From Bispira polyomma (Eukaryota): a stretch of DNA of 64,000 nucleotides. The notes below the pieces were generated by a model. It saw only the letters and a list, made by a program, of their open reading frames with translations. It had not been told where the DNA came from and did not search any database. How positions within the stretch are numbered: position 1 is the stretch's first letter; each line of letters starts with the position of its first letter. The position numbers and the translations under genes are program-made. The DNA is taken from assembly GCA_965649765.1 (NCBI GenBank), contig OZ287759.1, positions 27,652,001-27,716,000 of the forward strand, read 5' to 3'. Positions 1,423 through 60,105 of the stretch are shown piece by piece.

Positions 1423-1527
1423 CTTGTACTGATATTGATGATGCCTGCACCGCCTGTTCCAGCAGCACTAGATGTACAGTCTGTAGTGGCAACGAGTACC
1501 CTACCAGTGCTGGTACATCATGTGACA
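1423..1527 (+). CDS. Gene 1 Cys-module exon (105 nt, phase 1-1)
   Basis: cccttttatAG|cttgt ... tgtgaca|GTaagt; encodes CTDIDDACTACSSSTRCTVCSGNEYPTSAGTSCD. Confidence 0.9.
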
Positions 1528-4500
1528 GTAAGTATATTTTAGTACATCTTAAACGAAATGCAGGCAAATAGCGTATTATAATTAAAAATAATCTGCATGT
1601 ATGTTATAGACATATATGTTATGGTGTAATCAGTGATCATAGATAGTCAATGAAATTTCTAAATCACTGATTTTGTCAGTAAATACCTGTAATCACTGAA
1701 AAATGTCAATAAATATAAGTAATCACTGGCATTTCAGTGCCCAACTTTACTTATTGTGTTGCGAATTTGTAACATGCTTTATTGATGACTTAAGGTAGGT
1801 TGAGTCAAAATATGAAATACAAAAATGACTGGAAAAGTGTTTAACAGACTATCTACCATTACAACTGCAGTAATATGTTGTTCAGTTTGCCTTTAGTTAG
1901 ATTTAACAAGGTTTGACAAATAAGGGAGTTTTGTTGTCTGTAAGAGCAGTCAAATGTAAGTGTTCTGAAGTGCACAACATCAACTATAATTTAATGAACT
2001 AAAATTAGATATAAAAACCAATTTTAAGTGATATGAAGTGCAGGTTATGTATTTTGATACATTAAAAAATAAGTAACGAATAATTGCTGTATGTGATCAT
2101 AGTTTATACTGCCTTGTGTATTTATACATATACATATATATATATATAATTTGATCAAACATTTAGTTGTTCTCATTAGAGGCTGAAATCAGACTCTCCC
2201 TTGATGAAAAGAAATAGCCTTTGCTAGCCTCCACCAGAGTCATGTGCTCCTCAGTCAGAGAAATCCAAAATAATAATGGATTCACCCCAACAAAGTGGAA
2301 TCTAGTGGGGAATTTGGGTTAAATTTGCCAAATTCACTGTTTTTACATTTGACGTCATCAAATTATTTAAAACGTAGATTTTTCCAGTCCCTAACAGCCG
2401 ACTGTGCACAACCTAATCTCAAAACTCACAAGGATCTAGGGGCCAAATAAATAGCTGGACGTATCACACAGGTCCCTACAACGTTATACTCTGTATACTA
2501 ATTTCATACTCTATATATTATTTAGTTTGGCCCCTAGCGACTGTGGGTTATACAGGTGTAAGCAACGATAAACTCACAAACTTTGTGATGTTGTACTAAG
2601 TAGGCACATGCACAGTGACTTGTTTTCTTGATAAGATACTGGCTGCTAGGAGGTTATATTTTTAATTGTGTCTGTTAGTTTGTTCCGACTCTATACCAGT
2701 GAGCCAATGGTGTGGTCTGAGGGCCGCTATATTCTGTTCTTGTTAATGTGTTTGGGGGTAACAGCCTTGTTTGTCAATGATTGGTCACATGTCAAATTAC
2801 CAATGTGATTTACCTGCACTGTTTCTATGGGGGTTGCTATTTGTTTAACCTGTAGCAACAACAAGTATCCAGATGGGTTAGGTGACTGTGTCACTAAGTG
2901 TTAAGGGCTTTACAGACTGCCTACGTCACGACATGGCACAACGTTTAATAGAGATTTCTCCAAGGTTAATAGCAGTGTCATGCCAGGACCAATCTGAATA
3001 ATTAATATATATTGTCTTATTTCTATAAGTATGTAGTTTCGTGTCGTGGGCGGTCTGTAAAGCCCCCCTGCATATATTGTATAACAATACAGCACACAAT
3101 TTTTCCACATTATTTATTACATTTTTAATCATGTGTCTGCATTTCGGGACATTACTTCACTGGGTTTTGGGGATTTTAAAGGCTATATCAAATGTTACAT
3201 TAGATAAGTTTAACAACTCATTTAAATAGTTCTTGTTCTCTGTAACAGACCCTGTAATGTGTCATTTAATTACTTCAATAATCTATCAGTAATACCTATA
3301 TTCTTGTAAATTGAAATGTTGCAAAAATAATAACTATATTCCTACATATTTCAGCTTGTGGGAATATTATTACTGACTGCACTGAATGTGACGTAACTGA
3401 CGCTGGTGTGACTTTCTGTACAGCATGTGACAACAGCAACGGCAAATATCTAGATGATGGTGACTGTATCCGTAAGTAGTAACCCAGATAATTTTGTATA
3501 TATATTTCTAAAAAAGGCGTATACGCAAAATTATTTTTGCTAAGTGATTACTTTATAGTTTCAATGAGATTCACTTATGTACAGAAGTGGAAAGAAAAAC
3601 ACATTAATGCATTTTTTTAAATCCTTTTAAGCCCACTTTATACACCAATATGGAACTAATTTTTATATGTCACACTATATTGTATCTGTGAAAGTACTGT
3701 GGATTGTTTTTTTTAATGTAGTATGCAACACCGTCATAGATGACTGCATGACATGTCAGACATCTGATGGTACTACCAAATGTACTGAGTGTACTACTGA
3801 CCTGTACCCTTCACCTGACGGAGACTGCTGTGGCCGTAAGTCCCTTATGTGTGTGTTCTTAATCAGTAATTTAACCTTATCATGTCACACAATAGTGTTT
3901 AATGCATGTACAGTTATTGTAACATTCTTTTAAAGAGGAAAATCTTTTGGTTTCCTGATATGTCAAAAGGACATTGATTAATATTGGATAAATATTGCTC
4001 TGAATGACAGGTCTAACTGATGACCAGGCATTGCACTATTGATTTAAAACACACATTTAAACTTTATATACATTTGAAAACTCTATTGCAATATTAAAAG
4101 TCTGAAACAAAAACATGCACATTTGAAACCTAATAGAATTAGAACAAGTAGTATTTAAATTCAGTTTTAATTGTGCATCTATATTATCGTATTGCTTAGT
4201 ATTTCTATTTTACATACTTTAACCCATTATATATCCTGTTCTGTAATGCACATCAAAATGTCACAGTGATAATGTATGTCCCATTGAAAAATGAGAAGGC
4301 TATCCCCAGATACATAGATACAGTCATACCCATTTACTGTACCCCTGTACTAAATCGGCTCAATAAATCAGTAGCTGGTGTGATAGTTTGCTGTATTAAA
4401 ACCAATTCACAGCAGCTGATTTTTGGCAATACATCTAACACAGTGGATGAAACGTATCACAGCATTTCAAGGCGGAAGCTGAATTCATCAACACATCAAT

Positions 4501-59200: not shown

Positions 59201-60105
59201 TATTTAAGTGTGCAGAGATTGTTAAAATTTTTTATATGTTTAGTTAAGTAAAAAAAAAAAAAGAAATAAAAAAAAAAAGTATATACATAAAAAAATAATG
59301 ATTCTGTCGTATATACAGATAAGCTTTTCGCAAATTATTACGCCATGAATTATTGGGAATTGTGAGGTAAAGTAGCCAAACCTTTTTAGATGGACTCAGA
59401 TTGGTAATGGATTGACTCAAACTTTTATCCTTACCGGACACATATCCTTCTCTTTTGTAGCTTGTACTGACATTGATGGTGACTGCAGTACCTGCAGTGA
59501 CGCATCTACATGTACAGCATGTACCACCGCAGGAAACACAGTCCAAGCAGATGGTTCAGCATGTGTTGGTGGGTAATACATCAAATTATATATACATATT
59601 TTCATAAAAATACCACATCATGACATCAATTACTTGCATTTTATTGCTTATTTTTTGTCATTAGTATTTGGATTAATTAAACCAAAAACGTTTATTACAG
59701 GTGAAATTTCTTTGTTTACATATTGGACAAAAAGTGTACATATTTTTTTAAATATAGACATCCTTGTGAAATGTTTTTTTAAATTTAAAGAAAATTTATT
59801 CTGTAACTTTAGCACAAATAAAACACACTCAATTTCAAGTAATCACATACCTTTCAAGACAATGTATCATACATTCTTATATAATATGTTAATATTATAT
59901 TTTTTTTCATTACTATTGTACTTCCTTGTACCACTAGCTTGTAACAACACCACAATACATCTGTGGTATTGTGATCCCTCATATAAGCACATTTATATTA
60001 TAGATTGTTCCGCAATTACCGACTGCACCACCTGTGCTTCTGCAACTACCTGTTCAGCCTGTGGTAATAGCAAGGTCCCTGCCGCTGATGCCGCGTCATG
60101 TGTTG
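50261..60105 (+). CDS. Gene 2 (5' part, spliced): secreted Cys-rich repeat protein, paralogue of gene 1; exons 50261-50293, 54207-54246, 55387-55494, 56326-56442, 56730-56834, 59461-59568, 60004-60105; continues beyond the window
   Basis: MKASNILSILA-IAAFSCHTSQAQA-V-CATTAITNCVSYSSPTTCDICADGFYPAANSLTCE-T-CATVISDCSACSVTSGVTTCTACTTAGNSVTTDGLSCI-D-CGTVIMDCTTCATATTCSACGSSKVPAANAMSCV-A-CTDIDGDCSTCSDASTCTACTTAGNTVQADGSACV-D-CSAITDCTTCASATTCSACGNSKVPAADAASCV; all junctions are GT-AG and in frame. Confidence 0.88.
50550..50790 (+). mobile_element. Old tRNA-derived SINE in gene 2 intron 1 (3' remnant of a similar element at ~53300-53395)
   Basis: gtggttgcctagag (A-box-like), gggattgaatacc (B-box-like), tttcttcccaccaatataaatctgaccgtc tail. 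Confidence 0.45.
51026..51577. repeat. Recent 289-bp tandem duplication in gene 2 intron 1
   Basis: ttgttttgcagtaattacgtctccaattttaag... at 51026 and 51315, nearly identical. Confidence 0.95.
53012..53204. repeat. ~101-bp tandem duplication
   Basis: atatttttgtcac.ccattgtaaaga.tatggaaca.tagacaacatttcagta occurs twice. Confidence 0.9.
54207..54246 (+). CDS. Gene 2 exon 2 (signal peptide C-half, phase 0-1)
   Basis: aattccAG|attgct...gcag|GTaaaa; IAAFSCHTSQAQA completes a signal peptide with S-Q-A / A-Q-A cleavage motifs and supplies the phase 1 needed by the module exons. Confidence 0.75.
55387..55494 (+). CDS. Gene 2 first Cys-module exon (108 nt, 5 Cys)
   Basis: ttttatttcAG|tttgt ... tgcgaga|GTatgt. 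Confidence 0.85.
56326..56442 (+). CDS. Gene 2 type-A module exon (117 nt)
   Basis: tctttttgtAG|cttgt ... tgtattg|GTaggt. Confidence 0.9.
56730..56834 (+). CDS. Gene 2 type-B module exon (105 nt)
   Basis: gtattatAG|attgt ... tgtgttg|GTaagt. Confidence 0.9.
57439..59276 (+). mobile_element. L1/Tx1-clade LINE, 5'-truncated, inserted sense in a gene 2 intron
   Basis: RT C-terminal part (LEIFGNISGLRMNKEKTKMIWIG, FLWNGKPDKIKR...GGIKMINI) through the CCHC knuckle CSFCKQHAENVEHLYCDC. One frameshift and two stops, an A-rich tail, and an 11-bp TSD aagtatataca (57428-57438 / 59277-59287). Confidence 0.93.
59461..59568 (+). CDS. Gene 2 type-A module exon (108 nt)
   Basis: tcttttgtAG|cttgt ... tgtgttg|GTgggt. 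Confidence 0.9.
60004..60105 (+). CDS. Gene 2 type-B module exon (102 nt)
   Basis: atattatAG|attgt ... tgtgttg|GTaagt. Confidence 0.9.

What the first reader, a model, noticed from the sequence alone, without database searches (positions are those of the whole stretch)
1423..60105. Tandem family of GPI-anchored CxxC-repeat surface proteins resembling protist variant surface antigens, in an animal
Seen: two same-strand paralogues whose combined parts give a signal peptide, a string of ~33-39-aa C-x4/7-C-x2-C-x5/9-C-x2-C-x11/13-C modules and a GPI-like tail. Only the Cys skeleton is fixed and no catalytic domain is visible. Established: such CxxC-rich furin-like repeats make up Giardia VSPs and the GPI-anchored ciliate immobilisation antigens. 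Inference: this is a rapidly diversifying cell-surface or mucosal protein cluster (immune, allorecognition, gamete-recognition or shell/mucus role), probably annotated only as 'PCSK5-like' or uncharacterised.
Basis: partly seen in the sequence, partly recalled or inferred. Interest (0 to 1): 0.75.

Follow-up and report, generated by a model that had tools for sequence, protein, structure and literature searches.

The report
Animal GPI-anchored cysteine-repeat surface proteins
Two neighbouring partial animal genes encode chains of a small six-cysteine module, one module per exon, with a secretion signal on one and a lipid-anchor signal on the other, so they look like an animal counterpart of ciliate surface-coat proteins, but their role and any antigenic variation are unproven.

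Summary
Ten intact phase-1 exons each encode one 33-39-aa Cys module: five close gene A (1423-8048, GPI-type tail) and five open gene B (50261 onward, signal peptide), 42 kb apart. The pattern occurs 9 times versus 0 in each of 100 shuffles. No protease or kinase domain was found, but neither gene is complete in the window.

The module is the old six-Cys furin-like (R-spondin-type) repeat that is common in protist-like proteins. Cys1 and Cys3 co-vary in 626 of 627 modules of relatives, which points to a disulfide. Gene A lacks the TM+CRGKA tail, so these are not Giardia VSPs; the layout is closer to ciliate immobilisation antigens. Five ORFs from other records share the exon boundaries.

Module turnover is shown: an exon-pair duplication, a mosaic exon, a dead exon, and exon histories decoupled from their introns. 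Positive selection is not shown (pN about equals pS, few sites). Family size, expression and function are untested.

Best reading: a GPI-tethered, disulfide-stiffened surface-coat rod that diversifies by exon duplication and exchange. New variant of a known kind; interest 0.45.

The parts
1423..1527 (+). Gene A module exon A1; mosaic: first 27 nt resemble B4, downstream intron resembles that of B3/B5
2793..2894 (+). Degenerate module exon (frame broken, donor GT lost) inside gene A
   Evidence: nhmmer E 0.001; translation and sequence
3355..3471 (+). Gene A module exon A2
3722..3835 (+). Gene A module exon A3 (seven Cys)
5014..5115 (+). Gene A module exon A4
6131..6229 (+). Gene A module exon A5 (short type; 21 of 32 residues identical to P0123 from another record)
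7951..8048 (+). Gene A terminal coding exon: Thr-rich spacer, small-residue omega site, polar spacer, about 17 hydrophobic residues, stop; AATAAA at 8180
   Evidence: GPI signal by inspection; no predictor run
50261..50293 (+). Gene B start exon (ATG, first 11 codons of signal peptide, phase 0)
54207..54246 (+). Gene B second signal-peptide exon (phase 0 to 1; weakest donor of the set)
55387..55494 (+). Gene B module exon B1, five Cys (Cys3 replaced by Tyr, as in P0106)
56326..56442 (+). Gene B module exon B2
   Evidence: folded
56730..56834 (+). Gene B module exon B3
57430..59107 (+). Broken non-LTR retrotransposon fragment in the intron between the duplicated exon pairs
   Evidence: zf-RVT E 1e-5; 45 relatives at E<=1e-20; open frames
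59461..59568 (+). Gene B module exon B4 (duplicate of B2)
60004..60105 (+). Gene B module exon B5 (duplicate of B3)
62138..62319 (+). Third copy of the intron segment that precedes B2 and A1; suggests that gene B continues with further modules beyond the window
   Evidence: blastn 76-79% to 703-770, 1226-1336 and 56007-56107

Best explanation
A small tandem family of animal cell-surface proteins built only of six-Cys furin-like (R-spondin FU-type) repeats. Proposed working: the signal peptide sends the chain into the ER (inferred from sequence). Each module folds as a small beta-hairpin unit (predicted), held by three disulfides 1-3, 2-4, 5-6 (1-3 supported by covariation; 2-4 and 5-6 by analogy with R-spondin, recalled). 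The modules stack into an elongated, protease-resistant rod on a short Thr-rich, probably O-glycosylated stalk (inferred). The hydrophobic tail is exchanged for a GPI anchor (inferred), so the rod stands on the outer leaflet and can be shed. Most likely role: a protective or adhesive coat on an environment-facing epithelium, with the variable inter-Cys loops as its binding surface (inferred; the weakest step). Because every module is one symmetric phase-1 exon, modules can be gained, lost, fused or exchanged without breaking the frame, and this turnover is seen in the sequence (shown).
For: Exon and phase structure; signal and tail. Single-module model pLDDT 93 with a two-strand hairpin; five-module stand-in P0086 pLDDT 80, repeated beta elements. 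R-spondins make up 11 of 13 PDB sequence hits for the window-only profile (best E 0.085), and 13 of the 14 best for the mixed profile (E 5e-5 to 3e-3). R-spondin chains also lead the weak structural rows (Z 3-4.2). Cys1/Cys3: both present 136, both absent 490, discordant 1 of 627 modules in 106 of 123 hit proteins. The spliced module chains score 65.5 and 80.9 bits against the best relatives versus at most 42.7 and 46.2 in 50 Cys-preserving shuffles each. Turnover: B2+B3 duplicated as B4+B5 with introns. The first 27 nt of A1 match B4 at 24 of 27, its downstream intron matches that of B3 at 169 of 221, and its exon body at only 46 of 78 (Fisher p 0.005). The B3/B5 exon bodies match at 71 of 78 against intron 122 of 184 (p 1e-5), synonymous sites included (p 0.04). 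Same exon ends in 7 of 7 modules of five ORFs from other records.
Against: Neither gene is complete, so the signal+modules+GPI chain is a composite of two paralogues. No signal or GPI predictor could be run. No single exon hits any Pfam furin-like or VSP family at E<=1 (0 of 10). Fold matches are all weak (no Foldseek E<=0.001; best Z 4.3 is SCARF1, tied with perlecan and R-spondin), and the single module matched EGF-like chains rather than R-spondin. The multi-module fold is of a stand-in from an unnamed record, not of the window's protein. The relatives were selected with a profile of these exons, so the BLAST-versus-shuffle test is partly circular, and modules within a protein are not independent (per-protein vote 35 vs 71, none discordant). 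No expression or localisation data. The exon-versus-intron tests rest on about 20 synonymous sites and AT-rich intron alignments.
Confidence: 0.6

Rival explanations
1. A polymorphic recognition locus (allorecognition, gamete recognition or anti-parasite) or a variably expressed antigen coat, driven by diversifying selection on the loops between cysteines.
For: Non-Cys nonsynonymous divergence of the A1 body exceeds the flanking intron divergence (pN 0.48 vs 0.24, p 0.001 against B3; 0.49 vs 0.27, p 0.005 against B5). Layout and same-orientation tandem array match Tetrahymena Ser genes (PMC4136848). Symmetric exons allow combinatorial skipping.
Against: Synonymous divergence is raised as well (pS 0.37-0.40), and pN vs pS is never significant (p 0.58-1.0), which fits a mosaic origin as well as selection. 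B2/B4 dN/dS is about 0.56 and B3/B5 about 1.1 on 11 changes. Only two genes lie in 64 kb; no allelic or expression data.
Confidence: 0.2
2. Ordinary multi-domain proteins (convertase-like, receptor or matrix proteins) whose other domains lie outside the window.
For: The 5' part of A and the 3' part of B are unseen. Furin-like repeats in animals usually accompany other domains (R-spondins; PCSK5 and FRAS1, recalled). Several protist-like hits carry additional non-repeat regions. One unexplained open phase-1 candidate at 948-1097.
Against: In B the modules follow the signal peptide directly, leaving no room for a prodomain or subtilisin domain; A ends in modules plus a GPI-type tail. Shared introns link the start of A's visible part to the module array of B. 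No such Pfam family in 86 frames, the candidate included.
Confidence: 0.12
3. A decaying, neutrally turning-over repeat cluster; gene B or both genes are pseudogenes.
For: Dead exon at about 2793-2894, exon remnants, a retrotransposon in B, odd Cys counts in B1 and A3, pN about equal to pS for B3/B5.
Against: Ten of ten modelled module exons are open and in phase with GT/AG ends, and five Cys columns stay invariant while synonymous sites are saturated in many pairs. The B1 Tyr recurs in P0106 and is the commonest residue at that site in four-Cys modules (315 of 490).
Confidence: 0.1
4. An extracellular metal- or mineral-binding protein (CxxC metal sites, or an acidic Ca-binding shell or matrix protein).
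For: 13-14 CxxC per visible part; gene A's part is strongly acidic (net charge -32 in 210 aa, 13% Asp). VSPs are reported to bind zinc substoichiometrically (PMC2996952).
Against: Cys are lost in a 1-3 pair rather than as CxxC units. No His and no CxxCxxxCxxC motif in the modules. Gene B's part is much less acidic (-12). The secretory pathway is oxidising (own knowledge).
Confidence: 0.1
5. Horizontal acquisition from a protist (ciliate or diplomonad), followed by intron gain.
For: The best-scoring relatives are intron-free protist-like proteins, up to 60% identical to B2 over one module (P0002); lateral transfer was proposed for myxozoan VSP-like genes (10.64898/2026.02.11.705288).
Against: Animals own this module in R-spondins. 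One phase-1 exon per module is the usual signature of animal exon shuffling (own knowledge). The searched collections seem to hold few spliced animal proteins (45 of 45 retrotransposon relatives were unnamed ENA frames), so the ranking is biased. No tree was built: 35-aa Cys-rich modules carry too little signal.
Confidence: 0.05

Closest known systems
Tetrahymena Ser / ciliate immobilisation antigens (PMC4136848)
   Same: Periodic Cys blocks with variable spacers, a C-terminal GPI signal, same-orientation tandem genes. The paper's Cys search motif matches both genes (8 and 10 matches).
   Different: Ser blocks are 55-100 aa, here 33-39 aa. Here each block is a phase-1 exon in an animal-type gene with large introns. 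Serotype switching is not shown, and no sequence homology to Ser proteins was tested.
Giardia VSPs / CRMPs (PF03302; PMC2996952, 10.1101/2022.03.07.483299)
   Same: Signal peptide; many CxxC with the same favoured tetrapeptides (CTAC, CTEC, CETC); no CxC; module aligns to a VSP-family protein (hhalign probability 88%).
   Different: Gene A has no transmembrane helix with a CRGKA tail, no GGCY and no CxxCxxxCxxC; VSP-like hits rank only 27th-83rd of about 123 against the spliced parts.
R-spondin furin-like domains (Furin-like_2, PF15913) and other FU repeats
   Same: Cys1-Cys6 spacing and the Ile-x-Asn/Asp-Cys motif align with R-spondin FU2; Atlas neighbours carry PF15913 and PF03302 on a minority of members (scores 0.82-0.90, leads only).
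   Different: Six Cys per repeat instead of eight (the extra loop is absent); at least five repeats and nothing else visible; GPI-type tail; no TSP1, subtilisin or receptor domains seen.
Six-Cys and four-Cys repeat proteins of unnamed protist-like records (P0002, P0061, P0086, P0030)
   Same: Best sequence relatives; 30 of 123 hits carry three or more six-Cys modules; several have a signal peptide and a hydrophobic C-terminus.
   Different: Uninterrupted ORFs; taxa not available; many are far longer or carry other domains.
VSP-like proteins of the myxozoan Sphaerospora molnari (10.64898/2026.02.11.705288)
   Same: A published case of CxxC-rich surface proteins in an animal (18 genes).
   Different: Transmembrane-anchored with a basic tail, in an endoparasite; no sequence comparison was made here.

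Membership tests
Giardia VSP | N-terminal signal peptide | tested here: met
   Gene B, by inspection and hydropathy; no SignalP
Giardia VSP | Cys-rich ectodomain with many CxxC | tested here: met
   15% Cys, 13-14 CxxC per visible part
Giardia VSP | C-terminal TM helix plus CRGKA tail (the defining feature) | tested here: not met
   Gene A stops right after the hydrophobic stretch; gene B's end is outside the window
Giardia VSP | Pfam PF03302 match | tested here: inconclusive
   0 of 10 single exons match, but the model is 397 positions long and the spliced chains were not scanned
Giardia VSP | Mutually exclusive expression and switching | not testable with these tools
   No expression data
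Tetrahymena Ser / i-antigen | Cys block motif CX>=6 CX>=1 CX>=1 CX>=1 CX>=1 C within 120 aa | tested here: met
   8 and 10 matches; permissive: 4,925 of 24,725 Tetrahymena proteins pass it
Tetrahymena Ser / i-antigen | C-terminal GPI signal | tested here: inconclusive
   Geometry fits (small-residue omega site 23-25 residues from the end, polar spacer, hydrophobic tail); FragAnchor or NetGPI not available
Tetrahymena Ser / i-antigen | Repeat block of 55-100 aa | tested here: not met
   33-39 aa versus figure legend
Tetrahymena Ser / i-antigen | Phylogenetic grouping with known Ser proteins | not tested
   No named Ser sequences were available from the tools
Furin-like (R-spondin FU-type) repeat | Sequence match to the FU domain | tested here: inconclusive
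   Window-only profile E 0.085; profile with relatives E 5e-5; no Pfam hit on single exons
Furin-like (R-spondin FU-type) repeat | Cys1-Cys3 pairing | tested here: met
   Indirect: 626 of 627 modules of relatives gain or lose both together; R-spondin connectivity is recalled
Furin-like (R-spondin FU-type) repeat | Fold similarity | tested here: inconclusive
   Stand-in model vs R-spondin Z 4.2, rmsd 4.3, 59 aligned; tied with SCARF1 Z 4.3, rmsd 4.8, 73 aligned and perlecan Z 4.0, rmsd 3.0, 64 aligned
Furin-like (R-spondin FU-type) repeat | Eight Cys per repeat (recalled) | tested here: not met
   Six per module: a shortened variant
PCSK5-type proprotein convertase | Prodomain and subtilisin domain between signal peptide and Cys-rich region (recalled) | tested here: not met
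   Gene B goes from the signal peptide straight into modules; no peptidase family in 86 frames; gene A's 5' part is outside the window

The most novel reading that the evidence does not exclude
A free-living animal has a ciliate-style variable surface coat: a cluster of GPI-anchored six-Cys repeat proteins whose single-exon modules are reshuffled by unequal crossing-over, exon-limited gene conversion and possibly combinatorial exon skipping. It would act as a polymorphic self/non-self or anti-parasite system not yet described in animals.
Probability: 0.13. Interest if true: 0.8.

Novelty: new variant of a known kind. Interest (0 to 1): 0.45.

Why it matters
The module and the general layout are known from protists, and the module is known in animals within multi-domain proteins. 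A GPI-type protein made only of the six-Cys form, one module per exon, did not turn up in nine literature searches on this topic (open-access library only). If full models and population data confirm a polymorphic cluster, it would give invertebrate immunology or fertilisation biology a new candidate recognition locus and a clean case of exon-level module shuffling. If not, it is one more lineage-specific Cys-rich surface protein family. A useful by-product is the covariation evidence that the six-Cys and four-Cys (Cys-x-x-Tyr) repeats of protist-like proteins are one module with or without the 1-3 disulfide.

Tried and rejected
Pfam on single exons: only four chance-level zinc-ribbon or DUF matches (E 0.16-0.37). 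Foldseek and VIA-align on the single module: no match with E<=0.001, and 2 of 48,161 chains at Z 2.4; absence there excludes nothing. Full-length animal homologues: none recognised (4 hits among 7,994 scored candidates; 119 hits; 3 hits among 1,452); this is uninformative because the collections appear to hold mainly unspliced frames for animal assemblies. Names and taxa of the relatives could not be looked up, so labels such as 'ciliate-like' are my reading of the sequences, and the host taxon stays unresolved. Further module exons in the 42-kb spacer or on the minus strand: none beyond the dead exon. Positive selection: tested with Nei-Gojobori counts, not supported; most module pairs are saturated. 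B1 Cys-to-Tyr as pseudogene damage: rejected. TNF-receptor-type repeat: considered; structural rows Z<=3.1, ranked below R-spondin, not excluded. tRNA genes: none. No complex prediction was run because no binding is claimed. The genome-contig scan was not used; metagenome and viral contig collections stayed unchecked. Supplements of the cited papers were not read and could list relevant annotations.
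Full report
OBSERVATION. A six-frame scan and an exon scan found ten AG/GT-bounded exons, each 99-117 nt, open, and in phase 1 at both ends. Five (A1-A5, 1423-6229) are followed by a terminal exon at 7951-8048 with a Thr-rich spacer, a small-residue omega site, a polar spacer, about 17 hydrophobic residues and a stop, then AATAAA at 8180. Five more (B1-B5, 55387-60105) are preceded by two short exons (50261-50293, 54207-54246) that give a 24-residue leader with a basic start, a hydrophobic core and an Ala-x-Ala end. 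The pattern is found 9 times against 0 in each of 100 shuffles (post hoc pattern). B1 has five Cys and A3 seven. An eleventh, dead exon lies near 2793-2894. No further module lies in the 42-kb spacer or on the minus strand.

CONTEXT. Pfam on all 85 open frames of 78 or more codons plus one candidate exon gave families in 4 of 86, all transposon parts: DDE_Tnp_4, MADF, RVT_1 and zf-RVT. Introns of 0.25-3.9 kb, non-LTR retrotransposon fragments, a four-copy 250-nt SINE-like repeat and a Harbinger-like element point to an animal genome (inference). A mollusc-like invertebrate is my recalled impression from the repeats and is not established; the 45 relatives of the retrotransposon frame were all unnamed ENA entries.

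PARALOGY. Intron stretches around A1 (703-770, 1203-1336, 1445-1751, 1811-2043) match introns of gene B at 70-79%, so A and B share descent beyond the Cys pattern. Gene A's 5' end and gene B's 3' end are outside the window; the signal-modules-GPI protein is therefore a composite of two paralogues.

WHAT THE MODULE IS. Single exons hit no relevant Pfam family (0 of 10). A profile of the ten exons found 119 proteins among 1.84 billion representatives; 63 of 123 stored hits carry at least one six-Cys module and 30 carry three or more. Most read as protist repeat proteins (my reading; names and taxa could not be looked up); 3 of 4 hits carry PF03302 (VSP). In the PDB the window-only profile returned R-spondins in 11 of 13 rows, weakly (best E 0.085); a profile with 19 relatives gave E 5e-5. 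Atlas neighbours carry Furin-like_2 and VSP on minorities of members with scores of 0.90 or less, which are leads only. AlphaFold gave the B2 module pLDDT 93 with one beta-hairpin and a five-module stand-in (P0086, an unnamed record) pLDDT 80. Fold searches were all weak: R-spondin Z 4.2 (rmsd 4.3, 59 aligned), SCARF1 Z 4.3 and perlecan Z 4.0; the lone module gave only EGF-like rows. The strongest structural clue is covariation: in 627 interior modules of 106 hit proteins, Cys1 and Cys3 were both present in 136, both absent in 490 and discordant in 1, with Tyr replacing Cys3 in 315 (modules that did not fit the spacing rules were not counted, and modules of one protein are not independent). 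This fits a 1-3 disulfide as in furin-like domains (connectivity recalled) better than four-Cys metal sites. I file the module as a six-Cys form of the furin-like repeat, with sequence and fold tests inconclusive on their own.

RELATIVES WITH THE SAME GENE STRUCTURE. Five short frames from other records (P0044, P0095, P0106, P0122, P0123) hold seven modules flanked by intron-like text. All 7 end with Gly at the position where the window's exons read into a donor. P0123 matches A5 at 21 of 32 residues, and P0106 has the same five-Cys Tyr form as B1. Three of them are tagged ENA, one on a 4.6-Mb contig. So the one-module-per-exon family exists in other genomes and some module types are conserved. 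No full-length animal homologue was recognised, which says little given what the collections hold.

HOW IT DIVERSIFIES. The pair B2+B3 is duplicated as B4+B5 with introns at 69-72%, a retrotransposon lies between them, and a third copy of the leading intron starts at 62138. A1 is a mosaic: its first 27 nt match B4 at 24 of 27, its downstream intron matches that of B3 at 169 of 221 (76%), yet its body matches B3 at only 46 of 78 (59%; p 0.005). Conversely the B3 and B5 bodies match at 71 of 78 (91%) against 122 of 184 (66%) in the intron (p 1e-5), and synonymous sites are also more alike than the intron (2 of about 20; p 0.04). Exon histories are thus decoupled from their introns, which is most simply exon-limited exchange (gene conversion or unequal crossing-over; inference). 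Against positive selection: pN and pS do not differ in any of three comparisons (p 0.58-1.0), B2/B4 dN/dS is about 0.56, and most other pairs are saturated. For it: non-Cys pN of A1 exceeds intron divergence (p 0.001 and 0.005), but pS is raised too. These tests use about 20 synonymous sites and are not corrected for multiple testing.

MECHANISM. Shown: exon structure, module turnover, no catalytic domain in view. Predicted or inferred: secretion, disulfide-bonded hairpin modules forming a rod, O-glycosylation of the Ser/Thr-rich chain (23% and 32%), GPI anchoring and shedding. I commit to a protective or adhesive surface coat with variable loops (0.6 for architecture and working; the tissue and ligand are open). 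One detail is testable: the first Cys of B1 has no Cys3 partner. It either pairs with Cys17 if the leader is cut early, or stays free for an inter-chain bond; A3's extra Cys raises the same question.

COMPARISON. It is built like a ciliate immobilisation antigen (Cys blocks, GPI signal, tandem same-strand genes; PMC4136848), but its blocks are shorter and no homology to Ser proteins was tested. It is not a Giardia VSP: the defining TM+CRGKA tail is absent from gene A (PMC2996952; 10.1101/2022.03.07.483299). Gene B is not a convertase. CxxC-rich VSP-like proteins have been reported in an animal before, in a myxozoan parasite, with a TM anchor (10.64898/2026.02.11.705288).

PAPERS, WHAT I SAW. 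PMC4136848: parts 1-2 of 4 of the text (abstract, introduction, methods, results). PMC2996952 and 10.1101/2022.03.07.483299: 12 passages each. 10.64898/2026.02.11.705288: 10 passages. PMC12217663: one passage, a legend naming a VSP-superfamily domain among oyster CSRP homologues. All others: search listings only. No supplements were read. Nine searches on the main topic showed no description of this family; three returned nothing at all, and the library lacks most subscription papers. PCSK5, FRAS1, TNF-receptor and R-spondin disulfide facts are recalled.

VERDICT. Real and correctly described; interpretation partly supported. New variant of a known kind, interest 0.45. The bold reading, a polymorphic or switchable surface-recognition system in a free-living animal, is not excluded (probability 0.13, interest 0.8).

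Noticed in passing
window 21613-25975 (stem-loop 22878-22924 +; related copy 24132-24182 -): A broken Harbinger-like element with convergent transposase (+) and MADF (-) genes. The transposase region is followed by an Rfam Histone3 stem-loop above the gathering score (37.6 vs 34 bits); the MADF region ends in an 84% identical inverted copy that Rfam does not score. Transposon genes with histone-type 3' ends would be unusual; one literature search listed three papers, none on this by title or abstract start.
   Followed up: partly
window 16997-17248, 23593-23844, 31455-31710 (-), 39048-39299: Four copies (81-96% identical) of a 250-nt SINE-like repeat with a tRNA-like head; ARAGORN finds no tRNA gene.
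   Followed up: no
window 11725-12679 (-), 31760-32385 (-), 47363-47956 (-): Decayed non-LTR retrotransposon fragments (RVT_1 E 1e-3 for one; CR1/L2 type by recall).
   Followed up: partly
window 54053-54066: A 14-nt stretch with strong-looking acceptor and donor between the two signal-peptide exons of gene B; inclusion would put a stop in frame (possible poison micro-exon, or chance).
   Followed up: no
window 948-1097: Open phase-1 candidate exon with good splice scores upstream of A1, no Cys, no Pfam match; probably not real, but unexplained.
   Followed up: partly
window about 56677 and 59938: Remnant acceptor plus the first codons of a module just upstream of B3 and B5: traces of earlier exon duplications.
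   Followed up: no
P0118: A hit with a prepilin-like N-terminal motif (recalled) fused to four six-Cys modules, suggesting that the module also occurs in a bacterial pilin-like protein.
   Followed up: no
P0001-P0123: Protist-like repeat proteins use two forms of one module, six-Cys and four-Cys with Tyr at the Cys3 site; 12 proteins mix both forms.
   Followed up: partly
window 27132-27531; 46104-46474; 51026-51584: A 92-nt tandem array (4.4 copies), a 370-nt imperfect palindrome with pieces also at 40254-40372 (MITE-like), and a 92% identical 280-nt local duplication.
   Followed up: no
window 57147-57420 vs 62247-62383 and 63852-63983: The flank of the intronic retrotransposon recurs in the third repeat unit, so the duplicated unit may have carried part of the insertion.
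   Followed up: no
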